64,000 nt of DNA from a virus (taxonomy: Duplodnaviria; Caudoviricetes), in IMG/VR virus record IMGVR_UViG_3300014205_005221, positions 1-64,000 of that record; one strand, written 5' to 3'. The translations under genes were made by a program, and so were the position numbers. The notes beneath the pieces were generated by a model. It was given only the letters and a program-made list of their open reading frames with translations, ran no database searches and had not been told where the DNA came from. Of the stretch, positions 1-60,268 are shown in pieces (the first letter of the stretch is position 1; every line of letters begins with the position of its first letter).

Positions 1-261
1 CACGTCGGACGCCACGTAGCCCCACGTGCTGGAGCCGTTGAGATTGACCGACGCCGTGACCGTGCGCGGGCCCGTCGCGATCACAGAGATCGACTCCACC
101 ACAGCGGTGAACTGGCGGAACAGGTCGCCGTCGGCCCAGTCCCGGTGGTCGAGCCCATCGCGGTAGGCCACAGCCTGGCGCTGCGCCTCGACCGCGACCA
201 GTCGGGCCAGCTCCATGTCGCCATCGGAGAATCGGTCGGTGTATCCAGCGGTGTTCGTCAT
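1..261 (-). CDS. MTNT-tagged hypothetical protein, runs off the window edge
   Basis: ATGACGAACACC at 261; TTGCCT-N17-TAGTCT-N6-ATG promoter; frame open to position 1. Confidence 0.75.
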   Translation of the reverse strand, partial: MTNTAGYTDRFSDGDMELARLVAVEAQRQAVAYRDGLDHRDWADGDLFRQFTAVVESISVIATGPRTVTASVNLNGSSTWGYVASDV

Positions 262-359: not shown

Positions 360-707
360 TCAGTCCTTGAAGCCGAGGTAGGGCCAGTACACGATGGTGT
401 CAAGCCCCATGTTGTCGACCGACATGCGGGAAGCCATGCCCTCGAAGATCGACGCCAGCTCCAGCTGGTCCTGCTCGAACTGCGCGTCTGACTCCTCGTC
501 ACCGTCCAGAGCCTCGACCTCCTCGCGGATGGTCTCGGCGTGGCCCAGCAGCGAGGTCTTGACGTCGTAGTAGGGGCCCTCGATCACGATGCCGACACAG
601 CGAGAGCCGAACATGCCTCGTCCGGAGTAGTCCTCGCGGATGTCGGTGTAGGCGACCAGCTCCAGGGCCGACTCGAAGTCGTAGCGGGAGATTTCGGTGT
701 TCGTCAT
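360..707 (-). CDS. MTNT-tagged hypothetical protein, paralog of 7556-7900
   Basis: own promoter and tag; DYSGRGMxG and DxMGLxTxxYxP motifs shared with 7556-7900. Confidence 0.85.
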   Translation of the reverse strand: MTNTEISRYDFESALELVAYTDIREDYSGRGMFGSRCVGIVIEGPYYDVKTSLLGHAETIREEVEALDGDEESDAQFEQDQLELASIFEGMASRMSVDNMGLDTIVYWPYLGFKD

Positions 708-805: not shown

Positions 806-1318
806 TCAGCCCGTCATCGTGACCATGAGCCCGATCCCGTGGTTGGCACCGCCACACGCACAGGTGCAGGTCGCGCCCACAGCAGCGAGGCAAGAGCTGT
901 TGCACTTGTGCTTCGCGGCCGTCGACATGGTGCCGACCAGCTGCGCAGCGCGGACCCGGACCGGCTTCGCACCGTGGTTGGAGCACTTGAGGACGAAGTA
1001 CGCGTCCTTGATCGCGTGCGTCTTGCAGCCCTTGCGGGGACAGGAAGCCGACCAGCGGTTGAACTTCTTCGTGACCGGAGCCTTCGGGGCCGCCTTGGGC
1101 AGGGCCGGTGCGGGCGCCGTGTTGGCCGCAGGGGCGACGAAAGCGGGCAGGGCGACCACCGGAGCGGTGGGAGCCAGGTTGCAGGTGCGCACCGCCTTGA
1201 TGTCGATGTGGCGGAGCTGGACCCGGGAGCCGTTGTCCCAGTGCGAGCACTTGGAGCAGACCGGGCCGGTCAGCGTGTGAGCCGGGATGGTGTGGGCGGG
1301 GGTTCCGGTGTTCGTCAT
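806..1318 (-). CDS. MTNT-tagged Cys-rich, putative Zn-binding protein
   Basis: CxxC pairs and CNSSC..CTCACGGANHG; TTGACT-N17-TAGTCT-N6-ATG. Confidence 0.8.
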   Translation of the reverse strand: MTNTGTPAHTIPAHTLTGPVCSKCSHWDNGSRVQLRHIDIKAVRTCNLAPTAPVVALPAFVAPAANTAPAPALPKAAPKAPVTKKFNRWSASCPRKGCKTHAIKDAYFVLKCSNHGAKPVRVRAAQLVGTMSTAAKHKCNSSCLAAVGATCTCACGGANHGIGLMVTMTG

Positions 1319-1427: not shown

Positions 1428-1712
1428 TCAGCAGCCGTCGTCGGTGAACGCAGAGATGAGCGCGTCGATGACCAGGATCGACAGACCGCCGGACACGTCG
1501 ACCTGACCGATCACGTCCCACCGGGCCTCGGAGGTGAACTGCTCCAGCCGGAACGAACGGGAGCCGATGTCGGTCCAGCGGAACCCGACACAGCCGCGCA
1601 CGAACATGCCGTCGGCAGCGGCAGGCTCGAAGTCCAGCTCCTCGACGAGCAGGATCTCAATGTCGGACGAGGAAGCGGGGGCGTAGCGGGGGAAGTTCGC
1701 GGTGTTCGTCAT
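1428..1712 (-). CDS. MTNT-tagged hypothetical protein
   Basis: start re-called at the tag ATG 1712; TTGACT-N17-TATCTT-N6-ATG. Confidence 0.8.
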   Translation of the reverse strand: MTNTANFPRYAPASSSDIEILLVEELDFEPAAADGMFVRGCVGFRWTDIGSRSFRLEQFTSEARWDVIGQVDVSGGLSILVIDALISAFTDDGC

Positions 1713-1824: not shown

Positions 1825-2079
1825 TCAGCCAGCCCACATCGCGATGAGAGACCGCAGCGATCGCGCCGGGTCCTCGGGGTTCAGCTCCATGCTCGCCACC
1901 ATGTCCAAGTCGTCGCCGACACCACAGCTTTCGTAGAGCTGGAACATCGCCACATCCCCGTCCAGGATCAGCACCCCGGCAAGGCTGCCCTCCCAGCGGG
2001 TCAGCTCCCCGGAGAACCCGGGATCGGGACGGAAGCCGTACTCATCCGCAACCTGGGCAAGTGCTTCGGTGTTCGTCAT
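1825..2079 (-). CDS. MTNT-tagged hypothetical protein
   Basis: tag ATG 2079; TTGACT-N17-TACTGT-N6-ATG. Confidence 0.8.
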   Translation of the reverse strand: MTNTEALAQVADEYGFRPDPGFSGELTRWEGSLAGVLILDGDVAMFQLYESCGVGDDLDMVASMELNPEDPARSLRSLIAMWAG

Positions 2080-2170: not shown

Positions 2171-2440
2171 TCAGGAGCTGGGCACAGCGAGCGCGTCCCA
2201 CAGCGTGTTGGCGTCGCGACCGCACGCATCGCAGCAGCCGTCCCACACGAACGGGGGCTCGTCCTCGGTGTCACGGTTGAGCACGATCAGGAGGTAGCCC
2301 GACCAACGCGACGAGACCAGGTAGCGGAGGTCGACCTCGTCGGACACGCCCGAGTCGTCATCGTTGGCGATCAGCACCCGGCAGTCGTCGCAGACACTGA
2401 TCTCGGTCTCGGTAGGGGCGGGGGTTCCGGTGTTCGTCAT
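2171..2440 (-). CDS. MTNT-tagged small protein with two CxxC motifs
   Basis: tag ATG 2440; TTGACA-N17-TATTGT-N7-ATG; CDDC and CDAC. Confidence 0.8.
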   Translation of the reverse strand: MTNTGTPAPTETEISVCDDCRVLIANDDDSGVSDEVDLRYLVSSRWSGYLLIVLNRDTEDEPPFVWDGCCDACGRDANTLWDALAVPSS

Positions 2441-2539: not shown

Positions 2540-2833
2540 TCAGCCCAGGAAAGGAACGTGCGACCGAGCCGGACCGAACACCCGCTCCGAGCAAGTGAAG
2601 CAACCGCCGCGATCCCGACACGACTCCACCTCACCATCCTCGTCGAGCCACACCTCGACATCCAGACCGCAACGCAAGCACGTCGTGTGCCGCACCTCCG
2701 GACCCGGAGCCTCGACACAGACCTCCAGGTACTGCGCGACGAGAATGGAAATGTTCACGTCCTCGCCCACGACCGAACGCTCGGTCCGGAGCCATGAAGC
2801 GAAGTTGATGAGCTGCTGCGAGGTGTTCGTCAT
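2540..2833 (-). CDS. MTNT-tagged Cys-containing hypothetical protein
   Basis: tag; TTGACA-N18-TAGTCT-N6-ATG. Confidence 0.75.
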   Translation of the reverse strand: MTNTSQQLINFASWLRTERSVVGEDVNISILVAQYLEVCVEAPGPEVRHTTCLRCGLDVEVWLDEDGEVESCRDRGGCFTCSERVFGPARSHVPFLG

Positions 2834-2886: not shown

Positions 2887-3150
2887 CTAGGGAAGCAACG
2901 CAGGAACCGAGCCGTGCGCATCCCAATGGTGATCCTGCAGAGCCCGGAGGTGGGCACCGGTGTCGGTGAACACGGGCGTCAAACACAGGTGACACGCCAC
3001 AACCGACGGACCTCGCACATCGAACCCCTGACCGAACTCACCGCGCAACGCCAGCGAATACCCGGCCCGCACAGCACGCGGGACCGGGTTCCCATCACAA
3101 TCCTCACCGCGCACGATCACAACAACATCAGCCTGCGTGGTGTTCGTCAT
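2887..3150 (-). CDS. MTNT-tagged hypothetical protein, possible C2H2-like motif
   Basis: tag ATG 3150; TTGCTT-N17-TACTCT-N6-ATG; CHLC...HHWDAH. Confidence 0.75.
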   Translation of the reverse strand: MTNTTQADVVVIVRGEDCDGNPVPRAVRAGYSLALRGEFGQGFDVRGPSVVACHLCLTPVFTDTGAHLRALQDHHWDAHGSVPALLP

Positions 3151-3239: not shown

Positions 3240-3467
3240 TCAGACCGCCGGTTCGCGAGCCATGTCCAGGTTCTCCCGGAGACCGTCCATCGCCAGGTCC
3301 ATCACGCCCGTGCACCCGGCGTCCTCCAGCAGCCGGACGTAGCGGTCGGCCACAGCGACCAACAGTCCGAACACGTCGTCGGCCACATCCGAGCCGGACG
3401 CGAAGTACTCGCCCGCCAGCGCGTCGATGTGAAAGTCACTGAACTGGGCAGCAAGGGTGTTCGTCAT
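3240..3467 (-). CDS. MTNT-tagged hypothetical protein
   Basis: tag; TTGCTA-N17-TAGGAT-N6-ATG. Confidence 0.75.
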   Translation of the reverse strand: MTNTLAAQFSDFHIDALAGEYFASGSDVADDVFGLLVAVADRYVRLLEDAGCTGVMDLAMDGLRENLDMAREPAV

Positions 3468-3578: not shown

Positions 3579-3833
3579 TCAACGCACCTCCATCTTCCGG
3601 ACGTCCACCCCGTTGCGGCGGAGATCCGAGACCGTGTTCATCAGCGTCCGGGAGCACGACGCGGTCGAAGCGATGACACCCAGCAGCCGACCATCGGCAT
3701 TGGTGACCCGCAGGTGGCTGTTGCCGGGGGTGTTGGACACGTCCAGCTCCAGCACCCTCAACCGTTCGACCAGGTCACGGGTGGATCGGGGGAGCGAGCC
3801 CCGGAGCTTGGCGATCTTCTTGGCGTTCGTCAT
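3579..3833 (-). CDS. HicA-like mRNA interferase (dsRBD fold)
   Basis: 84 aa, basic; GNSHLRV motif and C-terminal N..SDLRR.G; tag variant MTNA. Confidence 0.6.
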   Translation of the reverse strand: MTNAKKIAKLRGSLPRSTRDLVERLRVLELDVSNTPGNSHLRVTNADGRLLGVIASTASCSRTLMNTVSDLRRNGVDVRKMEVR

Positions 3834-3873: not shown

Positions 3874-4056
3874 TCAGCGGCGGTCATCAATGGACGAGGT
3901 GTCCAGGTCCGCGCACACGTAGAACAGCGACCCGGACGCCGTCCAGCACGATCGGTCGTCCGCAGCCTGCACCTCGGGGGCGATGACCGACAGCACGGCC
4001 AACACAAAGATCAGCGAGCCGAGGGTGCCGACCAGGTAGCGCACGGTGTTCGTCAT
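3874..4056 (-). CDS. MTNT-tagged small secreted or membrane protein
   Basis: tag ATG 4056; hydrophobic N-terminus ending VQA-A. Confidence 0.7.
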   Translation of the reverse strand: MTNTVRYLVGTLGSLIFVLAVLSVIAPEVQAADDRSCWTASGSLFYVCADLDTSSIDDRR

Positions 4057-4425: not shown

Positions 4426-5031
4426 TCACCAGGCCAACCGAGCCGTCCGCACCCAACTCTCGACCTCGTCGAGATGGTGATCCTCGATGCCGGTCGACGG
4501 GTCCACGTGCAACAACAACGTGGGCAGGTTGCGGCGAGCGCGATCCCACCCGGACAGCTCACGAGCACGGATCTTGCGCGGCGAGTTGAAGCTGTCGTCG
4601 AGCCAGCACAGCGGACGACCAGCAGCGAAGTCGATCATCGCCGGAAACTTCCACAGGTCACGACGCGGGTGCCCGTGGAAATCCACCCACCGCAGCCGAG
4701 GAAGACCCAGAGCCGGTCCGATGACCGTGTTGCAGTTGTGTTCCCACAGCGATGCCCAGACCAGCTCCACATCCGACTCCCGCGACGTCCACGCCAGCGC
4801 GTCCCCGTGCCAGCCCGCCAGATCCAGCCGGGAATACGGGTGCCACGTCGAGCCCGGACGATACGAGATCCGATCCCGAAAGCTCACCGGGCGGTAGCCG
4901 CCCTGCTCCTTGGCATCGAGCTTGAGCTGCTTGAGCGGACGGGCGTACGCGTTGAGGGGACCGTCCACGTCGAGAGCAACGATCGGGGTCGGGAGAGTGG
5001 GCTTGTGGTAGGTACGTCGGGTGTTCGTCAT
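4426..5031 (-). CDS. HAD-superfamily phosphatase (RNA-repair-associated type), MTNT-tagged
   Basis: LDVDGPL motif I, LVWASLW, WLDD; tag ATG 5031. Confidence 0.8.
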   Translation of the reverse strand: MTNTRRTYHKPTLPTPIVALDVDGPLNAYARPLKQLKLDAKEQGGYRPVSFRDRISYRPGSTWHPYSRLDLAGWHGDALAWTSRESDVELVWASLWEHNCNTVIGPALGLPRLRWVDFHGHPRRDLWKFPAMIDFAAGRPLCWLDDSFNSPRKIRARELSGWDRARRNLPTLLLHVDPSTGIEDHHLDEVESWVRTARLAW

Positions 5032-5207: not shown

Positions 5208-6281
5208 CTAGGCAAGCGATGTCACGATGTCAGTCAGCTTCACCGCGTAGTGGTCCTCCAGCCGCTCCTCCCACGCCACCGGCCAGTACTTGTTGCCCCA
5301 CGCAGCACCGGCCAACGCACCGAGGATGGCACCGATCGAGTCGCTGTCGCCGTTGGACAGAGCCGCCCGGCGGAGCAGATCCGACCCGGAGCACAGCACG
5401 TCGGCGTCGAGGATGCCTACGGCCAGAGCCAGCGCCTCCCGCGCACGCCAACCCTCGCCCGCGACCTCGCACGGGTCGAAGCTCCACGGACCACGGATTC
5501 GCAGCTCGTCACGGAGCTGAGCCGCCGCACCGGCCACCCAGCCGACGTGACCCGCACCCTCGACCACGTAGTTGGCCTTGGAGCCGACCCAGACCTTCGA
5601 TCCCATCGGCACGTCAGTACGCTGCGTGACCCGGTACAGGTCGCTGAACGCCGTCGTGTCGTAAAGCGCACTACGCATGTCGTGAGCCATGTCCTCCAGG
5701 TACTCGGAGCACTGACCCGGGACGATCGAGCCGTTTGCCAGCGACCGCGTGAGCCGAGCCGCCGCGATCGAGGTGAACGCGTTCTCCGCCGGACCGTGCG
5801 TGATCACCGCCTGCATCGCAGCGATCGTGTCGATGTTGACCTCGGTGACCTTCGGGTGCAGTCCGATCCACGGAGCCCGCATCACCGAGCCGCACCCGGC
5901 GGAGTCGGACGACGTCGCAGCCAGCCAGCGACCCATGCCCCACCGCTCCAGCCGTCCGATCGAGGACATGCACGTGTCACCGGGGGCACGGTTGTTGCGC
6001 GGGTCGATCGCCCACGCACGGAACGCCGCGATCAGCTCCATACGCAGGTGCGCAAGCTCCACCCCGTCCCACGCGTCGAGCGCCGACCACACCGCCAGCG
6101 ACATCTGCGTGTCGTCGGTGATGCGGAGCTGCAGCGGAACCTCCGGGCCCATGTTGCCGTGCTGGCGGATCAGATGCTCGTAGCCCACGAACTCGGTCGG
6201 AGCACCGATTGCATCACCGTAGGCCATGCCGTAAAGGGCACCGACCTGGGCGTCGAGGAAGGTCTTCGTGGTGTTCGTCAT
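5208..6281 (-). CDS. ADP-ribosylglycohydrolase (DraG/ARH family), MTNT-tagged
   Basis: GDAIGAPTEF, ITDDTQM, GCGSVMRA and GDSDSIGA motifs. Confidence 0.92.
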   Translation of the reverse strand: MTNTTKTFLDAQVGALYGMAYGDAIGAPTEFVGYEHLIRQHGNMGPEVPLQLRITDDTQMSLAVWSALDAWDGVELAHLRMELIAAFRAWAIDPRNNRAPGDTCMSSIGRLERWGMGRWLAATSSDSAGCGSVMRAPWIGLHPKVTEVNIDTIAAMQAVITHGPAENAFTSIAAARLTRSLANGSIVPGQCSEYLEDMAHDMRSALYDTTAFSDLYRVTQRTDVPMGSKVWVGSKANYVVEGAGHVGWVAGAAAQLRDELRIRGPWSFDPCEVAGEGWRAREALALAVGILDADVLCSGSDLLRRAALSNGDSDSIGAILGALAGAAWGNKYWPVAWEERLEDHYAVKLTDIVTSLA

Positions 6282-6363: not shown

Positions 6364-6684
6364 TCAGCCGACGACCAGCAGAGCCGCAGCTTCCCACGCC
6401 TGGTTGAGCCGGTGCATGCCCAGCTCGGTGATCTTGAGAGTGGTCAGCCCGTCCAGCTCACCGGTGTACTTGCGCTCCTCGACGAGCCCGTTGCGGACCA
6501 GGTCGGCCATGCCCTCCTGGCGCTCCACGGAGAACCCGGACAGATCCGCCGGGGTCTCGGCACCCTTGGAGACCCGCTCCAGCCAGGACAGGTAGCGGAA
6601 CGCCATCGCCGGGTGGTCCCAGTGACCGTCCTCGGTCTGCGAGGTGACAACGTAGTTGGCGGGAACGTTTTCCGTGTTCGTCAT
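6364..6684 (-). CDS. MTNT-tagged protein, possible winged-helix
   Basis: LVRNGLVE...LKITELG pattern; TTGACA-N17-TAGTCT-N6-ATG. Confidence 0.7.
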   Translation of the reverse strand: MTNTENVPANYVVTSQTEDGHWDHPAMAFRYLSWLERVSKGAETPADLSGFSVERQEGMADLVRNGLVEERKYTGELDGLTTLKITELGMHRLNQAWEAAALLVVG

Positions 6685-6781: not shown

Positions 6782-6976
6782 TCAGACCAGCACGCGCTCC
6801 CGGCGGTACCGGATCGTCGGGTTGGCGACCGGAACCGGCTCCGGGCGGAACCGAGGGGCCGACGCCGCCTTGACCAGCGAGACCGCCATGGTCTTGTAGG
6901 TGACGCCCTCCGGGGTGGTGACCAACAGGATCGCGGTGCCGTTGTCGTGACCGATGACCTTCGTGGTGTTCGTCAT
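6782..6976 (-). CDS. MTNT-tagged hypothetical protein
   Basis: tag; TTGACT-N17-TAATCT-N6-ATG. Confidence 0.75.
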   Translation of the reverse strand: MTNTTKVIGHDNGTAILLVTTPEGVTYKTMAVSLVKAASAPRFRPEPVPVANPTIRYRRERVLV

Positions 6977-7079: not shown

Positions 7080-7460
7080 TCAGTCCGTGATCAGGACCAA
7101 CTCGGGGTTACGACCGGAACGTCCGTATCGGTCGTCGATGCGGAACGCGACAGTCTGAATCACGACGATGTCGCCCTCGACCAGCTCCACCGTGGCAGGG
7201 TTGTCGCCCGGAACCCGGTGAGCCGAGATCACCGACGCGTTGGGGATCAGGTGCGCAACCGGACGGTCGCTCTCCGAGTCGCCATCCGGGGTGAAGATGA
7301 CCGACCACGTGCAGGTGTGGCCCTGGTGCTTGGAGAACAGCCGGATCTTCGTGATGTCGTTGCGGCAGTCCGGGGTGTGGAACCACGTGCCACCGAGCGT
7401 GCGGTAGGGCTCGACCTCAGCGACGTGGACAGTGGGGATACGGGTTTCGGTGTTCGTCAT
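7080..7460 (-). CDS. MTNT-tagged hypothetical protein
   Basis: tag ATG 7460; TTGACA-N17-TACTGT-N6-ATG. Confidence 0.8.
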   Translation of the reverse strand: MTNTETRIPTVHVAEVEPYRTLGGTWFHTPDCRNDITKIRLFSKHQGHTCTWSVIFTPDGDSESDRPVAHLIPNASVISAHRVPGDNPATVELVEGDIVVIQTVAFRIDDRYGRSGRNPELVLITD

Positions 7461-7555: not shown

Positions 7556-7900
7556 TCAGTCGTCCTCGTCGGTACCGGGGATGTCACCCTCCAGCTGATA
7601 GCCAGGGAAGTACAGGACCGTGCCCAGCCCCATCGAGTCCATGCACGCGCGCTGAGCCAGCACGACCGCGAAACCCTGCTCCAGGTCCGGCTCGTCGAAC
7701 TCCTGCTGCTCGCCGACCAGCTCACCGAGCGAGGCGAAGAACCGGAACGGGTCCGAGCGGCCGTCGAAAGTGATGCCGAAGCACTCTTCGCCGTACATGC
7801 CGCGACCCGAGTAGTCGTTGCGGACCCGGGCGTCCCAGACCTGCGCGCACTCCAGGGCTTCGGTGATGAATCGAGCGTTGATGGTCTTGGTGTTCGTCAT
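7556..7900 (-). CDS. MTNT-tagged hypothetical protein, paralog of 360-707
   Basis: tag ATG 7900; shared DYSGRGM motif. Confidence 0.85.
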   Translation of the reverse strand: MTNTKTINARFITEALECAQVWDARVRNDYSGRGMYGEECFGITFDGRSDPFRFFASLGELVGEQQEFDEPDLEQGFAVVLAQRACMDSMGLGTVLYFPGYQLEGDIPGTDEDD

Positions 7901-8813: not shown

Positions 8814-8948
8814 TCAACGCCAATCCTTCAGGGCAGCAGCCCGGCGTCCCGCTCGGGTGGCCTGCTTGCGTACCTTCTTGGCGGGGATAGGGCGGGATGC
8901 ATTGGAGCGTCGAAGCTCCTGCACTTGAGCAACCTTGGTGTTCGTCAT
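8814..8948 (-). CDS. MTNT-tagged 44-aa basic peptide, not in the ORF track
   Basis: MTNTKVAQVQELRRSNASRPIPAKKVRKQATRAGRRAAALKDWR; TTGACT-N17-TAGGCT-N6-ATG. Confidence 0.75.
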   Translation of the reverse strand: MTNTKVAQVQELRRSNASRPIPAKKVRKQATRAGRRAAALKDWR

Positions 8949-9066: not shown

Positions 9067-9150
9067 TGTCGAAGATGAGAGTCGAACTCATACGTCCCGA
9101 AGGGACACCAGCACCTCAAGCTGGCGCGTCTACCATTCCGCCACAACGAC
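9067..9150 (-). tRNA. tRNA-Leu(GAG), long variable arm
   Basis: CCAGC-TTGAGGT-GCTGG; acceptor stem has mismatches. Confidence 0.8.
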
Positions 9151-9151
9151 G

Positions 9152-9225
9152 TAGCTGCTGCAGGAATTGAACCTACCTGGTCCTCGTTATCAGCGAGGTG
9201 TCCACAACCAGTGGACTTAACAGCC
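9152..9225 (-). tRNA. tRNA-Ile(GAT)
   Basis: CCTCG-CTGATAA-CGAGG; GGTTCAATTCC. Confidence 0.85.
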
Positions 9226-9231
9226 ATACAG

Positions 9232-9345
9232 TGCGCTCGCTCCCCGTTAGAAGCATACCCCGGCGGTGACCCGGCGCGGAGGATTTGAACGACAGCCCCG
9301 TCACGAGAAACTGTCTACCTCTTTCTCCACAGGGGAGCGAGCGCA
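9232..9345 (-). ncRNA. structured ncRNA closed by a 14-bp terminal stem
   Basis: TGCGCTCGCTCCCC/GGGGAGCGAGCGCA; internal GTTCAAATCC; lies between tRNAs. Confidence 0.6.
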
Positions 9346-9346
9346 G

Positions 9347-9419
9347 TAGTTGCGAGTGGATTCGAACCACCACTGAACCGGGTCTGAGCCGGATCCCTCT
9401 ACCGTTGGGGTACGCAACC
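9347..9419 (-). tRNA. tRNA-Leu(CAG), short variable loop
   Basis: CCGG-CTCAGAC-CCGG; GGTTCGAATCC. Confidence 0.8.
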
Positions 9420-9431
9420 ATGTAGTTAGGA

Positions 9432-9494
9432 GGTCCAGGGGAGACGTCTTCCGTTGTTTATGACGAACACCGTCGGGCGCCTCAACCCTGGACC
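9432..9494 (-). ncRNA. hairpin sRNA with a loop complementary to the MTNT 5' tag
   Basis: GGUCCAGGG/CCCUGGACC and GAGGCG/CGUCUC stems; apical CGGUGUUCGUCAU. Confidence 0.75.
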
Positions 9495-9496
9495 AG

Positions 9497-9568
9497 TCGG
9501 AGCGACAAGAATCGAACTTGCGTGGACCTGCTCCCAAAGCAGGTGGGCGACCATTACCCCACACTCCG
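9497..9568 (-). tRNA. tRNA-Pro(TGG)
   Basis: CCTGC-TTTGGGA-GCAGG; C1-G72, A73. Confidence 0.85.
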
Positions 9569-9738
9569 AAATTCAATTATGGTGGATCGGCAGTTTCAGT
9601 GGCCTGCTTTCACCGACCCGTATGGTAACAGGTTCAGCCCAGCTGCGGGATCATGGGTCACCCGGGCGGAATTGAACCGCCAACCTATTGACTTATCTCT
9701 GTCTCACACAGCGGCTCTAGAAACCAACGTGTGCCACG

Positions 9739-9813
9739 TCTGGATGAGAGGATTTGAACCTCTGGCTTCTCCCGTCCGAGGGGAGCACTCTAACCGTGCT
9801 GAGCTACATCCAG
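9739..9813 (-). tRNA. tRNA-Pro(CGG)
   Basis: CTCCC-CTCGGAC-GGGAG; canonical D and T arms. Confidence 0.9.
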
Positions 9814-9824: not shown

Positions 9825-9860
9825 GCTTATGTTATACCCAACCGCGAAGCAAGTGCAACA
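9825..9860 (-). promoter_or_regulatory. promoter of tRNA/sRNA cluster 1
   Basis: TTGCAC...GGG-TATAAC just upstream of tRNA-Pro(CGG). Confidence 0.55.
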
Positions 9861-10136: not shown

Positions 10137-10415
10137 TCAGTCCTCCCAGCCGATGAAAACGTTGATTGCCCGCTCGACTGTCATACCCGCGTCCTCGTCA
10201 GCGTGCTCCAGGATCTCGGTGACCCGGGAGGTCAGCTCGATCGCAGCTACCTCGTCCCAAGGCTCCACCTTCATGAAGACGAGCAGCTGCTCATCGAAAC
10301 GATCCGCAAGGTTACGAGCCCCCTTGTAGCAAGCGTTGAACGCAGCCTTCTGGGCGTCCCAGAGCGCCTGCAGGAGAGCGAGATCGGCCTCGGTCTGAGC
10401 TTCGGTGTTCGTCAT
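10137..10415 (-). CDS. MTNT-tagged hypothetical protein
   Basis: TTGACA-N17-TAGCTT-N6-ATG; similar to 10724-10960. Confidence 0.8.
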   Translation of the reverse strand: MTNTEAQTEADLALLQALWDAQKAAFNACYKGARNLADRFDEQLLVFMKVEPWDEVAAIELTSRVTEILEHADEDAGMTVERAINVFIGWED

Positions 10416-10446: not shown

Positions 10447-10692
10447 TCAAGCAAAAAGCGCGATGTCCGCATCCATCACAGACCTACCCGGATGGTCCAC
10501 GAGCCAGACAGCGACCCGTTTCGCAGCCCCAAAACCTCCGTACGCGACCTGGAGCGCGGCGAAGAACACCGACTCCAGCGCAATCTCATCCGTGGCAGAG
10601 ACCAGACCCAACCGGGCCAGCTCGGCGTTGGAGTTATACATGTCATCCAACGCCGAGACCACTTCATACCTCACACGTTCGGTGTTCGTCAT
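10447..10692 (-). CDS. MTNT-tagged hypothetical protein
   Basis: TTGACT-N17-TAGTCT-N6-ATG. Confidence 0.8.
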   Translation of the reverse strand: MTNTERVRYEVVSALDDMYNSNAELARLGLVSATDEIALESVFFAALQVAYGGFGAAKRVAVWLVDHPGRSVMDADIALFA

Positions 10693-10723: not shown

Positions 10724-10960
10724 TCAAGCAGACTCAAATTTCCAGATGGTCAAGCGCACCGAAGTACCCGGGGACGCGATGAGCATCTTCATGATCCGCA
10801 CAGCGTTGTGATCGGAATACAACTGAGCGCCCAACAGCTCCAGGAACTTCTGGTCCAAGCCTTCCGCGATCACAGGGAAGACAGATTCCAGCTCGCGAGC
10901 GCAGTCCCATAACGACTGCAAAGCGTTGAGGACGCGAAGATCGATCTCGGTGTTCGTCAT
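10724..10960 (-). CDS. MTNT-tagged hypothetical protein
   Basis: promoter nearly identical to that of 10137-10415. Confidence 0.75.
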   Translation of the reverse strand: MTNTEIDLRVLNALQSLWDCARELESVFPVIAEGLDQKFLELLGAQLYSDHNAVRIMKMLIASPGTSVRLTIWKFESA

Positions 10961-13919: not shown

Positions 13920-14185
13920 GCCTCGCTCCGATTCTCGAAGGCCCGACGCAGATACACCGAGGGATCTGCGTTGGCAAACTCCACCTTCCCCATGATGCGG
14001 CCGACCGTGGTCACCTCCAGCTCCAGGTCGGCTACCAAGACCGCCAACGTACGCATGAGCGCGCCCTTGACCTCCAGCATCGCATCGAGGAACCGAGGGT
14101 CCTCCGACGCTGCCCACTGCCGAAAGATCCCGGCGAGCAGGTCCAGCGCTTCGAGGTCAGCATCAGAAGGAAAGGTGCTCGTCAT
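13916..14185 (-). CDS. hypothetical protein, tag variant MTST
   Basis: ATGACGAGCACC; CGG-TAGGAC-N6-ATG. Confidence 0.7.
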   Translation of the reverse strand: MTSTFPSDADLEALDLLAGIFRQWAASEDPRFLDAMLEVKGALMRTLAVLVADLELEVTTVGRIMGKVEFANADPSVYLRRAFENRSEA

Positions 14186-15325: not shown

Positions 15326-16234
15326 TCACCAGATCCACGGCGAGCCATTCACCAGATCCGACGCCACGGCGAACGAACGACGCTTCTTCGACTTCGCGTA
15401 GCAGTCGAAGCACTTGTGCCCCAAACCAAAACTCTGCGAAACAGAGCAGAACTCCACCTTAGCGCACTTGAGACAGAACGTCGCAACCGTGCGTGACTTT
15501 GCGGTAAGCAGACCCATGTTGCCCTGGCACGGCTTGCACACCAGGAACTGCCGACCACCGGCCACCGTGCGCGCCGCGTCCACACCGAGAACAGTGGTGT
15601 CGTTGCACCACACGCACGGCGCCGCCTGCAGCCCGGTAGAGCGAGCAGCCAGACGCGGAAGCGACTTCTGATGCACGGAGAACAACGCCAGGAAAGCCAT
15701 TGCGATGCCCGCATACGACGACCCGGCGGAGTAATTACCCATCGCGAAGAACATCAAAGCCAGCCCGACCAGCGTGCCGAAACAGATCACCAGCACGACC
15801 GAGTACACCCGGCCCAACATCCCGACCTTGGTCTTCTCCGGAACAGGGACCGCCTTGGGAAGGTCGTCCACAAGATTCCACAGGTGCGGAGACATCCCGA
15901 GCGGATCCCACGACGGAGGCTTGAGCGGCTCCGGCTCGTCCACCTTGACGTCGACCTCATCCGCGAGATCGGCATACGGAGTCGACACGCTCGACTCGAC
16001 CTGCTCCGACCACGAATCAATCGTCGCCATTAAATCCGCAAACGACGGTCCCCTGTGACGGGTCCGACCATTCACCGCGTGCGACGAGATGACATCGACG
16101 TTGCCGTCGATGGTGGTGCGGACCTCGACGTTCATCGCGTCGATGGTCGCCTTCACCTCAGCCGCCTGCGCATTCAAAGCCCGCAAAGAGGCTTCCAGCC
16201 GCTCGGTCTCATCCGACCAGGAGGTGCTCGTCAT
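15326..16234 (-). CDS. membrane protein with a C-terminal Cys-rich region, tag variant MTST
   Basis: two TM segments and four CxxC motifs; GGG-TAGGAC-N6-ATG. Confidence 0.7.
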   Translation of the reverse strand: MTSTSWSDETERLEASLRALNAQAAEVKATIDAMNVEVRTTIDGNVDVISSHAVNGRTRHRGPSFADLMATIDSWSEQVESSVSTPYADLADEVDVKVDEPEPLKPPSWDPLGMSPHLWNLVDDLPKAVPVPEKTKVGMLGRVYSVVLVICFGTLVGLALMFFAMGNYSAGSSYAGIAMAFLALFSVHQKSLPRLAARSTGLQAAPCVWCNDTTVLGVDAARTVAGGRQFLVCKPCQGNMGLLTAKSRTVATFCLKCAKVEFCSVSQSFGLGHKCFDCYAKSKKRRSFAVASDLVNGSPWIW

Positions 16235-22274: not shown

Positions 22275-22562
22275 TCAGCCCTCCAGGTTCACAAGCACGT
22301 AGAGGTCGCGCATGGCCTCGTAGACCTGCGTCGCCGCGTGCACCGAACCCTCGAACTCGACCCGGGTGGCGAAGAAGTCATCCTCGCCGTCACCCTTGGC
22401 CTCCGCCTTGACCGTGAGAGCGCCCCGGTAGCCCAGGCTCAGCAGGTGCGTGACCGTGGTCTGCCAGTACGGAAGCTCGTCCTGGGACAGGATCAGGAAC
22501 GCGTTCACGTAACCGGGGGCGACGGTGAACGGGGGCTTGGGGAGAGTCTGCGTGTTCGTCAT
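22275..22562 (-). CDS. MTNT-tagged hypothetical protein
   Basis: TTGCTT-N17-TAGTCT-N6-ATG. Confidence 0.8.
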   Translation of the reverse strand: MTNTQTLPKPPFTVAPGYVNAFLILSQDELPYWQTTVTHLLSLGYRGALTVKAEAKGDGEDDFFATRVEFEGSVHAATQVYEAMRDLYVLVNLEG

Positions 22563-24280: not shown

Positions 24281-24915
24281 CAGGACACACCCTCCTTGTC
24301 CGTCCACGCAATCAGCAGACGGATAGACAAAGCCAGCTTGTTGTTGTCACCCTCAACCACGGAACCACCCCACGCACGAGTCACCGCAGGGAGACGACGC
24401 TCCCAGCCCGGGAGACCGCCATCGATGATGGTCTGACGGATTGCCTTCACGACCTGAACCCTGTGGCTACTACCCGGCTTGCGAGCCCCCAGCCACATGC
24501 TGCGCAGCACCGAGTCGAAGAACCACACGTCGAAGTCCAGCTCGCACTGCGCGCAACCGTCGGCACGCAGCGAGCCCGCCTGGTGCGGGCCCTCCGCGCA
24601 CATATCCGGGTCGGGATCCCGCACGAACTCTCCCGCTCCAAGCAACGCGGACACGATCACCTGAACCTCAGCGTCGTTGCCCGAACCACGCAGGAAGTCC
24701 TCCAGCGTGCGAAGCGCGTTGAACGCCGCCTCACCGTTGGGCGAGCCAACACGCTCCAGGTCCACCCGAGCCGTCGCCACACGGGTACGCGCCAGCTGCG
24801 TCAGGTACCAGACCGGAACCCGGCTGGGGCTCTCGGCCACCTTGTTGCGGGTGCGGAAGTCCTGGTACAACGCCCAGAAGTCATCGCGATCCCGAAGCTC
24901 TTCGATGTTCGTCAT
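24280..24915 (-). CDS. hypothetical protein, tag variant MTNI
   Basis: TTGCTT-N17-TATTCT-N6-ATG. Confidence 0.75.
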   Translation of the reverse strand: MTNIEELRDRDDFWALYQDFRTRNKVAESPSRVPVWYLTQLARTRVATARVDLERVGSPNGEAAFNALRTLEDFLRGSGNDAEVQVIVSALLGAGEFVRDPDPDMCAEGPHQAGSLRADGCAQCELDFDVWFFDSVLRSMWLGARKPGSSHRVQVVKAIRQTIIDGGLPGWERRLPAVTRAWGGSVVEGDNNKLALSIRLLIAWTDKEGVS

Positions 24916-28217: not shown

Positions 28218-28523
28218 TCAGACGTACTCTGCCGGATCAATCTTCACGAACGCCGACGGGATCAGCTCGATCGAACGCACCCAGGAACGGTCCTTCGAGA
28301 TCCGCTCCGCCATCGAACGATTGAGGTTAGCCTGCGCCGATCCCATACCACGCTGCATGCGACGGCCATTACGCTGCAGCGGATTGTAGAACGCCACCCT
28401 GCCCTGCTCGTCAAGCAGCCACCAGTAATTCTTGTAGCACATCACGATGCCCGCAGGCGAATCGGTCAGCTCTGCCACAGAAATCCAGACATAGTGATCC
28501 AGAGGAATCTCGGTGTTCGTCAT
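28218..28523 (-). CDS. MTNT-tagged hypothetical protein
   Basis: TTGACA-N17-TAAGGT-N6-ATG. Confidence 0.8.
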   Translation of the reverse strand: MTNTEIPLDHYVWISVAELTDSPAGIVMCYKNYWWLLDEQGRVAFYNPLQRNGRRMQRGMGSAQANLNRSMAERISKDRSWVRSIELIPSAFVKIDPAEYV

Positions 28524-28559: not shown

Positions 28560-29471
28560 TCACCGGCGGTCGTCATCCATGAAGTTCTTCAGAGCCGACT
28601 TCGCGATCGGGCCCAGGAACTCGAACACCGAACTCAGATCCGGCGCGTCCTTCCCGGCCTTGTCCGTAGCACCCGGGTCAGCGGCACGCTCAGCCTTCAG
28701 CGCCTCCAGCTCGGCCTCCAGGCCCGCAATACGCGTGCGCGCCTTGCCGACCTCCTCGTGCAGGTGCAGAGCGTTCTTGCCTTCAACATCGCGCTGCTGA
28801 ATCGCTGCGGAAAGCTGCTGAGCGAGAGCCATGTTCCTCTCGTCCAACTCATTGGCTTCGCGGACCGCCTCGTCACGCTCCTTGGTCAGAGCCAGGCCCT
28901 TGCGATACGCGGTCCGATACGACTCACGCACATCGTCGAGCTGCGTCTTCAGACCAGCCACCTGACCGCGCAGCTTCAGAATCTCTTCAAACCGCTGCTT
29001 CTGATCACGTCCCTGACTTCCGGTCAAAGGCGCGTACTCCGCGTCAGCCTTACGAACCCTCTCGATAAGAACCTTCTTATCACGATTCAGGTCGTGCAGA
29101 CGATCCGTAGCCGCCTCAATGACCTCCAACGGCTCCGCCTCGCCCAACCGATCCTGATCAACCGGGGCCAGACCCTCCAACAGAGCCGCAGCAGCATCCC
29201 GCAGCTTGCCCTGCTCGATCATCCGGGACGTGTTGTCGAGATCGGTGTTCGCTTCCTGCGTTTCGGCCTGGCGCTTCCACAGGTTCGCCAGCTCGCGAAG
29301 CGCGTGGTGCGGAGCAGGCTCAGCCGACTCCAGACCACGGCGCACCGCGTCCCACAGCATCTCCGACTTGGCAGACGGGACATGCGACAGCGGCTTACCG
29401 TTTTCGTCGAAGACATCCGGGTGCATCGCAGCCGCTGCCTTACGAACCTGCCATTCCTGGATGTTCGTCAT
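28560..29471 (-). CDS. coiled-coil protein, tag variant MTNI
   Basis: heptad-rich; GGG-TAGGAC-N6-ATG. Confidence 0.75.
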   Translation of the reverse strand: MTNIQEWQVRKAAAAMHPDVFDENGKPLSHVPSAKSEMLWDAVRRGLESAEPAPHHALRELANLWKRQAETQEANTDLDNTSRMIEQGKLRDAAAALLEGLAPVDQDRLGEAEPLEVIEAATDRLHDLNRDKKVLIERVRKADAEYAPLTGSQGRDQKQRFEEILKLRGQVAGLKTQLDDVRESYRTAYRKGLALTKERDEAVREANELDERNMALAQQLSAAIQQRDVEGKNALHLHEEVGKARTRIAGLEAELEALKAERAADPGATDKAGKDAPDLSSVFEFLGPIAKSALKNFMDDDRR

Positions 29472-55462: not shown

Positions 55463-55750
55463 TCACCGAGAATGATCGTTCGCCCAGAACATGTCAAGCA
55501 AGACCTGCTCGACAATCCAGCGAAGATCGTTCTTACGTTCGATCTGACGGTTGATCCAAAGGAACCGCTTGTGCCAGTCCGCGAAATCCGGACGCGCCAA
55601 CTTCGGACCCTCCACCCGGATCCGCTCCAACAGGTGCAGCCACTCACCGGTCGAGAGCTTGCCGTCGGAGATTTCGCTGACCAGCGCGGTCAACCACTCC
55701 GCTCGCAGCAGCTTGGAACTCTTGATCTGAAGTGTGTCGGTGTTCGTCAT
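55463..55750 (-). CDS. MTNT-tagged hypothetical protein
   Basis: TTGCTG-N17-TACAGT-N7-ATG; hairpin downstream. Confidence 0.8.
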   Translation of the reverse strand: MTNTDTLQIKSSKLLRAEWLTALVSEISDGKLSTGEWLHLLERIRVEGPKLARPDFADWHKRFLWINRQIERKNDLRWIVEQVLLDMFWANDHSR

Positions 55751-57354: not shown

Positions 57355-57620
57355 TTGGCTCGCTCCTTCCTGGTCTTGGGTGCGTCCGGCTGATCGGAGG
57401 TGAACCACGGGTTCCGGTCTTCGCTAGGGAACTCCTTGATGCAGAAACGCTCCCAGCTGCGTCCATCCAGGATCCATCGGTCGTGGGCCGCGTCCGCCAC
57501 CTTCTCGAACGGAATGGAGACAGCGGAGGCAGCAGACGCCACTCCGCCCCACGCGCGGTAGCGCCAGTACAAAACGGCAGCCTTCGCGCAGTTGATTCGA
57601 AACTTAATGGTGTTCGTCAT
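57351..57620 (-). CDS. MTNT-tagged hypothetical protein
   Basis: TTGACA-N17-TATTTT-N7-ATG. Confidence 0.75.
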   Translation of the reverse strand: MTNTIKFRINCAKAAVLYWRYRAWGGVASAASAVSIPFEKVADAAHDRWILDGRSWERFCIKEFPSEDRNPWFTSDQPDAPKTRKERAK

Positions 57621-59819: not shown

Positions 59820-60268
59820 CAGCTCTTCTCCCTCTTCACCCTCACGCGCAGAATGCCCCGAGTACGCGGCCTCGTGTCCAGAATGGCCCGAGCGTTCGCC
59901 ACCGCAACACTCCACGAAGTGCCCTCATCCTGCTCGTCCTGGACATTGATAACCGCGTCGAGCAAATCCCAATCAACATCGAAACGGCCCAGCTCGGCGA
60001 CATCAGAGACCACAGACAAAGCCGTCCTGCCCTCGCGCCGCTCCAGCTCAACGAGGGGAACCTGCTTCTTCTCGTGCAGCCACACACCAACGATGCACGA
60101 AGGGGCGGAGCCATCCTCGGAGACATACCAGCAGCTCAGATCAGAACCCTCACGGTCGGTCTTCCGGTACACGAAGTCGTGACCCAGCTCAGCCTTGCGC
60201 GCTTCCGCGATCTCGGCCAGCTCATCGAGCGCCTGGTAAGCCAACGCGTAGATCTCTGTGTTCGTCAT
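59819..60268 (-). CDS. MTNT-tagged hypothetical protein, coupled to rtcB
   Basis: TTGCTT-N17-TAGGTT-N6-ATG; TGATG overlap. Confidence 0.8.
   Translation of the reverse strand: MTNTEIYALAYQALDELAEIAEARKAELGHDFVYRKTDREGSDLSCWYVSEDGSAPSCIVGVWLHEKKQVPLVELERREGRTALSVVSDVAELGRFDVDWDLLDAVINVQDEQDEGTSWSVAVANARAILDTRPRTRGILRVRVKREKS

What the first reader, a model, noticed from the sequence alone, without database searches (positions are those of the whole stretch)
9432..9494. One hairpin sRNA in the tRNA operon is antisense to the shared 5' tag of about 31 phage mRNAs
Seen: between tRNA-Pro(TGG) and tRNA-Leu(CAG) the minus-strand transcript reads GGUCCAGGG UU GAGGCG CCCGA CGGUGUUCGUCAU AAACAACGGAAGA CGUCUC C CCCUGGACC. 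Its apical GGUGUUCGUCAU is the exact complement of AUGACGAACACC, and this is the only inverted copy of the tag I found. By hand count, 22 genes carry the exact 12-mer and 3 differ only at position 12. The other 6 carry A8G (14185, 16234, 62763), A10G (3833) or C11U (24915, 29471). Each of these changes the amino acid but preserves a G-U pair, which favours RNA-RNA pairing over peptide selection. The U-CAU-AA context also mimics an initiator-tRNA anticodon loop. Inference: processing of the flanking tRNAs releases this RNA, which acts as a single switch that occludes (or possibly assists) the start codon of a whole leaderless regulon, for example early-gene shut-off.
Basis: partly seen in the sequence, partly recalled or inferred. 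Interest (0 to 1): 0.92.

Follow-up and report, generated by a model that had tools for sequence, protein, structure and literature searches.

The report
Phage hairpin RNA mirroring shared start tag
A large actinobacterial phage starts about 40 of its genes with the same 12 letters, and a hairpin RNA in its tRNA operon displays the exact mirror of those letters. The same arrangement occurs in two other phages, so it is probably one small RNA that controls a whole gene class by covering the start codons, though no expression data exist.

Summary
That copy lies in the apical part of a stable hairpin between tRNA-Pro(tgg) and tRNA-Leu(cag).

New evidence:
- The same tag follows sigma-70-like leaderless promoters in at least eight other actinophage genomes (48-74% GC).
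- Two of these also carry one exact anti-tag on the transcribed strand, intergenic and in a hairpin. They are a distant relative of this phage (G002, 46% protein identity) and the unrelated Microbacterium phage Zeta1847. Chance expects about 0.08 copies across all genomes.
- All three share CCCG-N2-3-GGUGUUCGUCAUA, with an accessible UCGUCAU.
- Tag variants that would break pairing occur at 1 of 72 sites in phages with an anti-tag and 17 of 39 in phages without one.

Limits:
- Six tag-bearing phages lack an anti-tag, so the tag does not exist for the RNA.
- The initiator-tRNA mimic idea fails.
- A second inverted copy lies inside an ORF outside the window.
- No expression data could be obtained.

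Best reading (about 0.5): a trans-acting antisense RNA, released by tRNA processing, that occludes the 5'-terminal AUG of tagged leaderless mRNAs. This scan has noted analogous "anti-start" RNAs in other uncultured phages; I did not check those notes.

The parts
9432..9494 (-). Anti-tag hairpin: 9-bp and 6-bp lower stems, internal loop, weak upper stem GGUGUU/AACAAC, 7-nt loop CGUCAUA
   Evidence: MFE -30.4 kcal/mol, z -3.15. No Rfam family at E<=10.
9460..9471 (-). Anti-tag GGUGUUCGUCAU on the minus-strand transcript, the exact complement of AUGACGAACACC
   Evidence: Expected by chance 0.028 per contig strand. Opening cost 3.6 kcal/mol for 12 nt and 1.3 for UCGUCAU; duplex -18.7.
9420..9495 (-). 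Predicted 76-nt RNA left after the flanking tRNAs are excised (inferred ends)
   Evidence: tRNA coordinates. Processing by RNase P and RNase Z is inferred from general tRNA biology.
9496..9568 (-). tRNA-Pro(tgg), immediately 5' of the hairpin
   Evidence: (53.4 bits).
9346..9419 (-). tRNA-Leu(cag), 12 nt 3' of the hairpin
   Evidence: (48.9 bits).
9831..9858 (-). Putative promoter of the tRNA/sRNA operon: TTGCAC-N16-(GGG)TATAAC. It has no tag and combines features of both promoter classes.
   Evidence: Read; class-2 motif. The consensus scanner did not call it because it requires T at -10 position 6.
250..261 (-). tag, exact
696..707 (-). tag, exact
1307..1318 (-). tag, exact
1701..1712 (-). 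tag, exact
2068..2079 (-). tag, exact
2429..2440 (-). tag, exact
2822..2833 (-). tag, exact
3139..3150 (-). tag, exact
3456..3467 (-). tag, exact
3822..3833 (-). tag, A10G (keeps G-U)
4045..4056 (-). tag, exact
5020..5031 (-). tag, exact
6270..6281 (-). tag, exact
6673..6684 (-). tag, C12G
6965..6976 (-). tag, exact
7449..7460 (-). tag, exact
7889..7900 (-). tag, exact
8937..8948 (-). tag, exact; first gene after the tRNA operon
10404..10415 (-). tag, exact; gene directly upstream of the tRNA operon
10681..10692 (-). tag, exact
10949..10960 (-). tag, exact
14174..14185 (-). tag, A8G; class-2 promoter (GGTAGGAC)
16223..16234 (-). tag, A8G; class-2 promoter
22551..22562 (-). tag, C12G
24904..24915 (-). 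tag, C11U (keeps G-U)
28512..28523 (-). tag, exact
29460..29471 (-). tag, C11U; class-2 promoter
55739..55750 (-). tag, exact
57609..57620 (-). tag, exact
60257..60268 (-). tag, C12A
62752..62763 (-). tag, A8G

Best explanation
The hairpin is the core of a small antisense RNA of about 63-76 nt. It is co-transcribed with the phage's tRNAs and released when the flanking tRNA-Pro and tRNA-Leu are excised. Its loop and weak upper stem display GGUGUUCGUCAU. The loop part (UCGUCAU) nucleates pairing with the extreme 5' end (AUGACGA) of every tagged leaderless mRNA, and the duplex then extends to 11-12 bp. A leaderless mRNA is recognised through its 5'-terminal AUG, so the duplex should block ribosome loading and may also alter decay. 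One stable RNA would thus act on about 40 mRNAs of one class (mainly those from sigma-70-like, presumably early, promoters) while leaving the roughly 60 untagged class-2 leaderless genes alone. The tag itself predates the RNA and has some other primary role, because many phages have the tag without the RNA; the RNA exploits it as a common handle. Shown: the complementarity, the structure, recurrence in three phages, conservation across a deep divergence, and the pattern of tag variation. Inferred: transcription, processing, action in trans, and the sign of the effect (repression).
For: (1) Non-random occurrence. An exact anti-tag lies on the transcribed strand in C1, G002 and Zeta1847. Order-2 Markov expectations are 0.028, 0.028 and 0.0016; the sum over eight tag-bearing genomes is about 0.08, and four copies are seen, three of them intergenic. 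(2) Same design in three contexts. In the window it lies between two tRNAs. In G002 it starts about 20 nt after the stop codon of a tagged 108-aa ORF and is followed by a second strong hairpin and the next tagged promoter (MFE -67.2, z -5.97). In Zeta1847 it lies between gp69 and gp70 and is followed by a canonical terminator (GGCCCCCGAGC...GCUCGGGGGCC UUUCU). (3) Accessibility. Opening UCGUCAU costs 1.3, 1.4 and 0.3 kcal/mol; opening the whole 12-mer costs 3.6-6.8, against -18.7 for the duplex. The first 12 nt of tagged mRNAs are 67% unpaired on average. (4) Conservation. C1 and G002 share 94 ORFs at a mean 46% identity and differ by 11 points in GC. Only one of C1's small early-region ORFs finds a weak, non-syntenic match anywhere in G002, yet the hairpin core is kept. 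All three phages share CCCG-N2-3-GGUGUUCGUCAUA. (5) Coupling of tag and anti-tag. Sites with a pairing-breaking change at positions 1-11 number 1/72 with an anti-tag and 17/39 without (Fisher 1.6e-8). Changes split 14:1 wobble-keeping to breaking against 4:20 (4.7e-6). De-replicated (genome, change) types split 7:1 against 3:13 (0.0023). Within the Zeta1847 lineage it is 0/11 against 8/17 for Honk plus Cen1621 (0.0097). The C11A variant, common in phages without an anti-tag, is absent from phages with one. (6) Class specificity. The 63 class-2 leaderless starts have diverse first codons, so the tag is not needed for leaderless translation as such. (7) The operon also carries other non-tRNA structured RNAs, so it serves as an expression platform for small RNAs.
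Against: Six tag-bearing phages have no anti-tag, even at 2 mismatches in a plausible context, so the RNA is dispensable for the tag system. Only two independent lineages carry the anti-tag, so the statistics rest on few evolutionary events, and tag copies within a genome are not independent. Zeta1847's promoter cassettes are near-identical repeats, which could by itself explain its 11/11 exact tags. The complementarity stops exactly at the 12-mer in all three phages and does not extend into the ACC that follows most Zeta1847 tags, which fits a fixed recognition 'word' as well as it fits RNA pairing. The RNA is made from what looks like an early-type promoter, which is an odd arrangement for an early shut-off factor unless it works through accumulation. 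A simple ensemble cofold gave only a modest advantage for tagged over untagged 5' ends (mean -4.5 against -2.5 kcal/mol). A second inverted copy sits inside an ORF.
Confidence: 0.5

Rival explanations
1. The element acts in cis. The anti-tag pairs with the tag at the 5' end of the same long transcript, closing the mRNA's 5' and 3' ends on each other to control that one operon's translation or stability. It does not act on the whole regulon.
For: In Zeta1847 and G002 the anti-tag lies in the 3'-UTR of an operon that starts with a tag, just before its terminator. In the window, no terminator is evident between the tagged gene starting at 10415 and the tRNA operon. 3'-UTR to 5'-region pairing within one mRNA is established for icaR of Staphylococcus aureus (my own knowledge; also named in earlier notes of this scan).
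Against: In the window the tRNAs between and around the element would be excised, cutting the anti-tag away from any upstream tag. The tRNA operon's own predicted 5' end carries no tag. A cis role for a single operon does not explain why all 72 tags in the three genomes avoid pairing-breaking variants.
Confidence: 0.12
2. The pairing occurs but has a positive or protective effect. The RNA covers the 5' end to shield tagged mRNAs from 5'-end-dependent decay, or stores them for later release. A related version is that it acts as an initiator-tRNA-like helper at the 5'-terminal AUG.
For: The structural and comparative evidence is the same as for the main explanation, and computation cannot tell the sign of the effect. 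The RNA is co-expressed with its targets from an early-type promoter.
Against: A duplex over the AUG of a leaderless mRNA should prevent start-codon recognition (general knowledge of leaderless initiation). The tRNA-mimic version fails on loop register and stem composition. The requirement for three G-C pairs in the initiator anticodon stem is stated in the abstract of PMC6393288.
Confidence: 0.12
3. The 12-mer is a double-stranded DNA site, an operator for a phage or host protein that sits at +1 to +12 of each promoter. The inverted copies are extra operator sites, and their hairpin context is incidental.
For: The conserved unit has the same sharp 12-bp boundaries in both orientations. Position +1 to +12 is a classic operator location. 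The tag is shared by unrelated phages of related hosts. Asymmetric, orientation-biased sites are known in actinophages, for example the stoperators of Cluster A mycobacteriophages (my own knowledge).
Against: A DNA-binding protein gives no reason for A>G and C>U, specifically, to be the tolerated changes only in genomes that carry an inverted copy. It also does not explain why the inverted copy sits in the apical part of an RNA hairpin three times, always on the transcribed strand and always intergenic. No protein is shared specifically by the three phages.
Confidence: 0.08
4. The hairpin is only a structural spacer or processing signal of the tRNA operon, and its match to the tag is a non-functional by-product, for example a recombination scar from a tagged cassette.
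For: The operon has other structured spacers. Most tag-bearing phages do without an anti-tag. One inverted copy in this genome is evidently incidental, being inside an ORF.
Against: The joint chance probability is about 1e-6. The inverted copies carry none of the promoter sequence that a recombination scar would bring along. The core is conserved between C1 and G002 although the surrounding early regions have diverged beyond recognition.
Confidence: 0.08

Closest known systems
c4 antisense RNA of phages P1 and P7
   Same: It is a phage-encoded, structured antisense RNA of about 77 nt, cut out of a longer transcript by the tRNA-processing enzyme RNase P. Its loops pair with the translation-initiation region of the target mRNA (as summarised in PMC5320573).
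   Different: c4 targets one operon (ant) through two loops at a Shine-Dalgarno site, as part of lysogenic immunity. Here a single seed would target the 5'-terminal AUG of about 40 leaderless mRNAs. There is no Rfam C4 match. Release would come from excision of flanking tRNAs and not from RNase P cutting the RNA's own stem.
T4 RegA (translational repressor) and RegB (endoribonuclease)
   Same: They provide global post-transcriptional control of a temporal class of phage mRNAs through a motif shared by their initiation regions. RegB cuts GGAG in early ribosome-binding sites, and RegA binds many early initiation regions (PMC3014915).
   Different: Those regulators are proteins that act on leadered mRNAs. 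Here the proposed regulator is an RNA, and the shared motif is the first 12 nt of leaderless mRNAs.
T4 RNAC and RNAD, small stable RNAs from the T4 tRNA region
   Same: They are non-tRNA small RNAs encoded within a phage tRNA cluster and matured alongside the tRNAs.
   Different: [quoted passage not shown] The RNA described here comes with an explicit predicted target set. No sequence relationship was tested.
Start-associated sequences (SAS/ESAS) of Cluster K mycobacteriophages and Cluster EF Microbacterium phages
   Same: They are unusually conserved short motifs tied to the translation starts of a subset of actinophage genes, with unexplained function (PMC7302621).
   Different: SAS lie upstream of the start codon at the ribosome-binding site and match the 16S 3' end. 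The tag here begins at the ATG of leaderless genes, has no notable 16S complementarity, and has a matching antisense hairpin.
Small RNAs derived from tRNA spacers, such as the 3'ETS of the leuZ transcript in E. coli
   Same: A functional base-pairing RNA is released as a by-product of tRNA operon processing (my own knowledge; not checked in a paper here).
   Different: 3'ETS-leuZ acts as a sponge for other small RNAs. It is not a regulator of mRNA start codons and is not phage-encoded.

Membership tests
tRNA (Rfam RF00005) | Cloverleaf with D, anticodon and T arms, detected by a covariance model or ARAGORN | tested here: not met
   ARAGORN finds nothing at 9420-9495. cmscan at E<=10 gives no tRNA hit there, while the six neighbouring tRNAs score 47-65 bits.
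C4 antisense RNA family (P1/P7 type, in Rfam) | Sequence and structure match to the family covariance model | tested here: not met
   No hit at E<=10 in 8800-10000 on either strand.
C4 antisense RNA family (P1/P7 type, in Rfam) | Loop(s) complementary to the translation-initiation region of the target mRNA | tested here: met
   The loop plus upper stem is the exact complement of nt 1-12 of the tagged mRNAs.
C4 antisense RNA family (P1/P7 type, in Rfam) | Maturation from a longer precursor by tRNA-processing enzymes | not testable with these tools
   Only inferred, from the position 1-2 nt after tRNA-Pro and 12 nt before tRNA-Leu.
Trans-encoded base-pairing small RNA | Accessible seed conserved among relatives | tested here: met
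   UCGUCAU opening cost is 0.3-1.4 kcal/mol in three phages. The core is conserved between C1 and G002 at 46% protein identity.
Trans-encoded base-pairing small RNA | Targets and seed are evolutionarily coupled | tested here: inconclusive
   No phage with a changed seed was found, so there is no true compensatory change. The indirect coupling is strong (1/72 against 17/39 pairing-breaking tag sites) but rests on two lineages.
Trans-encoded base-pairing small RNA | Discrete expressed transcript with defined ends | not testable with these tools
Intrinsic (rho-independent) terminator | G+C-rich stem followed directly by a U tract on the transcribed strand | tested here: not met
   In the window the hairpin is followed by UCCUAACUACAU and then a tRNA, and the scanner calls no minus-strand terminator there. 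In Zeta1847 and G002 a separate terminator-like hairpin follows the anti-tag hairpin.
Initiator-tRNA anticodon stem-loop mimic | 7-nt loop with CAU at loop positions 3-5 after U33, and three consecutive G-C pairs in the stem | tested here: not met
   The predicted loop is C-G-U-C-A-U-A, with CAU at positions 4-6. The closing stem is U-A, U-A, G-C, U-A, and in G002 it is mostly G-U and U-A. The three-G-C rule is stated in the abstract of PMC6393288.
Start-associated sequences (SAS) of actinophages | Motif lies upstream of the start codon at the ribosome-binding site and is complementary to the 16S 3' end | tested here: not met
   The tag starts at the ATG, 6-7 nt after the -10 element. The best 16S pairing run is 8 including G-U, which 69 of 300 shuffled tags reach.

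The most novel reading that the evidence does not exclude
ATGACGAACACC is a common 5' 'handle' on leaderless mRNAs of many unrelated actinophages. Some phages have evolved or acquired a portable anti-handle RNA (CCCG-N2-3-GGUGUUCGUCAUA in a hairpin) that switches off the whole handle-bearing gene class at once by covering the 5'-terminal start codon. This would be an RNA-only counterpart of T4 RegA/RegB and the first riboregulator known to act on leaderless initiation. Here it is delivered from a tRNA operon, which would also give a function to the long-unexplained class of non-tRNA RNAs found in phage tRNA clusters.
Probability: 0.35. Interest if true: 0.9.

Novelty: new variant of a known kind. 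Interest (0 to 1): 0.8.

Why it matters
How leaderless mRNAs are regulated after transcription is largely unknown. They have no 5' UTR, so the usual small-RNA and riboswitch targets are missing. A small RNA that pairs with the first 11-12 nt, start codon included, would be a simple general answer, and it would make one RNA the master switch for dozens of genes. It would also give a role to a non-tRNA RNA embedded in a phage tRNA cluster, a class known since T4 RNAC/RNAD and still unexplained. Separately, the 12-nt tag is shared at the nucleotide level by actinophages from 48 to 74% GC, and I found no description of it. One carrier of both tag and anti-tag, Microbacterium phage Zeta1847, is an isolated phage with a culturable host. 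Its close relatives Honk and Cen1621 naturally lack the anti-tag, so the hypothesis can be tested directly.

Tried and rejected
1. Rfam scan of 8800-10000 at E<=10: only the six tRNAs and noise, nothing on the hairpin.
2. Microbacterium phage Cece, the best DNA hit to the tRNAs: different tRNA order and no tag (4 one-mismatch hits against 2 in the control). Not a useful relative.
3. Pol I as a probe for relatives: the best isolate is Magritte at 36% identity. The viral-contig look-up returned only 24%-identity hits and missed G002.
4. Exact hairpin core GGTGTTCGTCATAAACAAC in viral contigs: 0 hits.
5. Pattern of an anti-tag followed within 95-125 nt by a tagged promoter: G002 only.
6. The 17-position motif CCCG-N2-3-GGTGTTCGTCATA in the viral, metagenome and genome collections (7, 82 and 67 stretches), and two 15-mers in viral contigs (64 and 38). 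After filtering for nearby promoter-linked tags, no new member remained; the rest are chance matches or ordinary gene starts on the other strand.
7. The idea that the tag pairs with 16S rRNA, which would make the hairpin an rRNA mimic: rejected.
8. The idea that the tag is a host regulon: host-clade genomes have 0-4 scattered copies each.
9. The idea that the inverted copy starts a plus-strand gene: no promoter lies upstream in any of the three phages, and in G002 the ORF would be 9 codons (read from sequence).
10. Short anti-tag cores (UUCGUCAU) in Honk and Cen1621: one and zero hits, as chance predicts.
11. A protein shared only by the three anti-tag phages: none found; only Pol I is shared, and the other phages have it too.
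12. Ensemble cofold ddG of the whole RNA against 40-nt 5' ends: poorly discriminating because it allows unrelated pairings. Replaced by duplex energy plus opening energies.
14. Literature: the exact 12-mer appears in no phage paper. The Microbacterium phage genomics paper lists other motifs but none for Zeta1847. No paper in the library describes a phage small RNA against leaderless starts.
Full report
**What is there.** The window is the first 64 kb of a 186,050-bp contig at 60.4% GC. The contig was binned with a 2.9-Mb MAG of 61% GC. It encodes RecA, RtcB, family-A DNA polymerase, a UvrD-type helicase and a sliding clamp, and 13 tRNAs in two clusters, so it is a large tailed-phage genome. 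The 12-mer ATGACGAACACC occurs 31 times on the minus strand at up to 1 mismatch and once on the plus strand, against 0.4 expected.

Each tag lies 6-7 nt downstream of a TAnnnT -10 element with a TTGAC/TTGCT-type -35 element. The A of the ATG should therefore be at or next to +1, making these leaderless mRNAs by inference. Across the whole contig there are about 40 such sites. The block at 183-186 kb continues across the contig end into 0-11 kb.

**The hairpin.** The plus-strand copy (9460-9471) is read on the minus-strand transcript as GGUGUUCGUCAU. It lies in the 76 nt between tRNA-Pro(tgg) and tRNA-Leu(cag). This RNA folds at -30.4 kcal/mol (z = -3.15). It has two G+C-rich lower stems, a weak upper stem formed by GGUGUU with AACAAC, and a 7-nt loop CGUCAUA. 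It matches no Rfam family, tRNA and C4 included, at E<=10. On the transcribed strand it has no U tract, so it is not a terminator.

The operon has its own promoter-like sequence, TTGCAC-N16-(GGG)TATAAC, and no tag. At least one other strongly structured non-tRNA RNA lies in the same operon, at 9226-9345 (14-bp closing stem, z = -4.3).

**Relatives.** No close relative exists among isolated phages. The best Pol I match is Microbacterium phage Magritte at 36% identity, and Cece, which shares tRNA similarity, has no tag. Scanning IMG/VR for '-10 element plus tag' showed that the tag is not private to this phage. It follows sigma-70-like promoters in the following genomes:
- Microbacterium phage Zeta1847, identical to IMG/VR record 2974520264_000001 (72% GC, 11 tags).
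- Zeta1847's relatives Honk and Cen1621.
- A 146-kb contig, G002 (49% GC, 20 tags).
- Contigs G025 (105 kb, 72% GC), G027, G028 and G004.
- Several smaller fragments.

Promoter sequences differ between these phages, but the 12-mer is the same. Host-clade genomes carry only 0-4 scattered copies each. The tag has no meaningful complementarity to 16S rRNA. The tag is therefore not a requirement of leaderless translation; it marks a gene class.

**The anti-tag recurs.** Two of these phages each have one exact inverted copy on the transcribed strand.

In G002 it starts about 20 nt after the stop codon of a tagged 108-aa ORF. It sits in a hairpin with an 11-bp G+C-rich lower stem, an upper stem GGGUGUU/AAUAUCU and the same 7-nt loop CGUCAUA. 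A second strong hairpin and the next tagged promoter follow (MFE -67.2, z = -5.97).

In Zeta1847 it lies between gp69 and gp70. The stem is CCGC(A)GGUG/CACCGCGG and the loop is UUCGUCAUAC. A textbook terminator and the next tagged promoter follow.

Order-2 Markov expectations for an exact anti-tag on the transcribed strand are 0.028 (C1), 0.028 (G002) and 0.0016 (Zeta1847), and about 0.08 summed over the eight assembled genomes. Four copies are seen, three of them intergenic and in hairpins. The fourth, C1:180757, is in frame inside an ORF and looks incidental. On the other strand, none of the three is preceded by a promoter, and in G002 the ORF would be 9 codons, so they are not divergent gene starts.

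**Homology and design.** C1 and G002 are distant relatives: 94 ORFs match at a mean 46% identity, and their GC differs by 11 points. Only one of C1's small early-region ORFs has even a weak (34%), non-syntenic match in G002, yet the hairpin core aligns. The unrelated Zeta1847 shares only Pol I and two short, weak ORF matches with C1, yet it has the same extended motif CCCG-N2-3-GGUGUUCGUCAUA. The 12-bp duplex is worth -18.7 kcal/mol. Opening the anti-tag costs 3.6-6.8 kcal/mol, and opening the seed UCGUCAU costs only 0.3-1.4. The first 12 nt of tagged mRNAs are mostly unpaired.

The comparison between phages is informative, however. I collected promoter-linked tags with up to 2 mismatches.
- In the three phages with an anti-tag, 1 of 72 sites has a change at positions 1-11 that would break pairing.
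- In the six phages without one, 17 of 39 sites do (Fisher p = 1.6e-8).
- By individual changes, the split is 14:1 wobble-keeping to breaking against 4:20.
- De-replicated to (genome, change) types, it is 7:1 against 3:13 (p = 0.0023).
- Within the Zeta1847 lineage, it is 0/11 against 8/17 for Honk plus Cen1621 (p = 0.0097).

The commonest variant in phages without an anti-tag, C11A (MTNN), never occurs in phages with one; their commonest internal variant is C11U. Position 12 varies freely everywhere, so the effective duplex is 11 bp.

There are caveats. Only two independent lineages carry the anti-tag, copies within a genome are not independent, and Zeta1847's promoter cassettes are near-identical repeats.

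**What argues against the model.** Honk, Cen1621, G025, G027, G028 and G004 keep the tag but have no anti-tag. At the junction syntenic with Zeta1847's gp69/gp70, Honk has no intergenic module at all. The tag therefore exists for another reason, and the RNA is an optional add-on. That reason may be an initial transcribed sequence, a CA-rich enhancer of leaderless translation (the latter from my own knowledge), or a site for some factor.

Searches with the 17-position motif and two 15-mers across the viral, metagenome and genome collections found no further members. The initiator-tRNA mimic idea fails on loop register and stem composition.

**Mechanism proposed.** The mechanism has five steps.
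1. The tRNA operon is transcribed (inferred).
2. Excision of tRNA-Pro and tRNA-Leu releases a hairpin RNA of about 76 nt (inferred).
3. The loop UCGUCAU contacts the 5'-terminal AUGACGA of tagged leaderless mRNAs, and the duplex spreads to 11-12 bp (thermodynamically favourable).
4. The start codon, the only ribosome-recognition element of a leaderless mRNA, is occluded, lowering translation of the tagged class and sparing class-2 genes (inferred).
5. In G002 and Zeta1847 the same RNA is made as a terminator-bounded 3'-UTR product (architecture shown, expression inferred).

The rivals are a cis 5'-3' closure, a protective or activating effect, a DNA operator, and a non-functional relic. They are listed with their tests.

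**Comparison with known systems.** The nearest known analogue by mechanism is the P1/P7 c4 RNA, which is about 77 nt, matured by RNase P and pairs through its loops with an initiation region (PMC5320573). The nearest by logic are T4 RegA and RegB, which control early mRNAs globally through their initiation regions. [quoted passage not shown] The element here is not a member of the C4 family, the tRNAs, the terminators or the start-associated sequences (membership table).

The exact 12-mer appears in no phage paper in the library. The Microbacterium phage genomics paper does not report the motif for Zeta1847 (PMC7302621).

Earlier notes of this scan describe analogous 'anti-start' RNAs in unrelated uncultured phages. 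I did not check those notes, and they did not affect the scores.

**Verdict.** I class this as a new variant of a known kind, an antisense riboregulator, with an unusual target: the shared 5' end of leaderless mRNAs. My confidence in the trans-repressor model is about 0.5, and about 0.7 that the anti-tag is a functional RNA element that pairs with the tag in some way.

Noticed in passing
window 9226-9345 (-): A 120-nt unassigned RNA lies between tRNA-Leu(cag) and tRNA-Ile. It has a perfect 14-bp closing stem and a T-loop-like GUUCAAAUCC, folds at -58.2 kcal/mol (z -4.3), and matches no tRNA or Rfam family.
   Followed up: partly
window 9569-9737 (-): A 169-nt spacer lies between the two tRNA-Pro genes. 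It contains a T-arm-like GGCGGUUCAAUUCCGCC but no detectable tRNA and is only weakly structured overall (z -1.97). It may be a decayed tRNA.
   Followed up: partly
whole contig; in the window e.g. 14185, 16234, 29471, 31938, 35309, 38985: A second promoter class, (G/C)GGTA(G/T/C)(A/G)A-N6-8-ATG/GTG, occurs at 63 sites on the minus strand with diverse first codons. It is probably a middle or late leaderless promoter class. Three of its sites carry tag variants.
   Followed up: partly
G000:C1:180757-180768 (outside the window): A second exact inverted copy of the tag lies in frame (G-V-R-H) inside a 173-codon minus-strand ORF about 2.5 kb downstream of the last tagged promoter of the 183-186 kb block. 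There is no special hairpin.
   Followed up: yes
Zeta1847 (MH271320) 44118/44133 and 45050/45095; L132: The deposited starts of gp67 and gp70 lie 15 and 45 nt upstream of the promoter-linked tag ATGs. If these genes are leaderless, as the promoter geometry implies, the annotated starts are probably wrong.
   Followed up: no
L127-L130, L143, L154-L165 and others: The identical 12-nt start tag follows sigma-70-like promoters in actinophage genomes spanning 48-74% GC and 48-186 kb. Positions 1-8 (ATGACGAA) are almost invariant everywhere, and ACG is kept for Thr even in 72% GC genomes. I found no published description.
   Followed up: partly
L131 (IMGVR_UViG_3300042988_002177, 40% GC): Two copies of the 12-mer lie inside a repeated stretch of about 50 nt (CTAACTACAGTCCATACACTATTAGC-ATGACGAACACC-AGTTAAAGT). 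There is no clear -35 element, and this is probably an unrelated repeat.
   Followed up: no
window 46226-48742 (-) and 57681-59915 (-): RecA (838 aa) and RtcB (744 aa) are far longer than their Pfam domains, and each matches in two stretches. This suggests inteins or N-terminal fusions. Zeta1847's relatives Honk and Cen1621 also encode RtcB.
   Followed up: no
window 25659-27310 (-): The second tRNA cluster (7 tRNAs) has gaps of 170-360 nt between genes. These could hold further small RNAs or small ORFs.
   Followed up: no
Zeta1847 23454-23465 and Honk 35998-36009: Both phages have GGCCUUCGUCAU (2 mismatches from the anti-tag, keeping the UUCGUCAU core) right after a G+C-rich hairpin. One 8-mer hit per genome is about what chance predicts, so this is probably coincidental.
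   Followed up: partly
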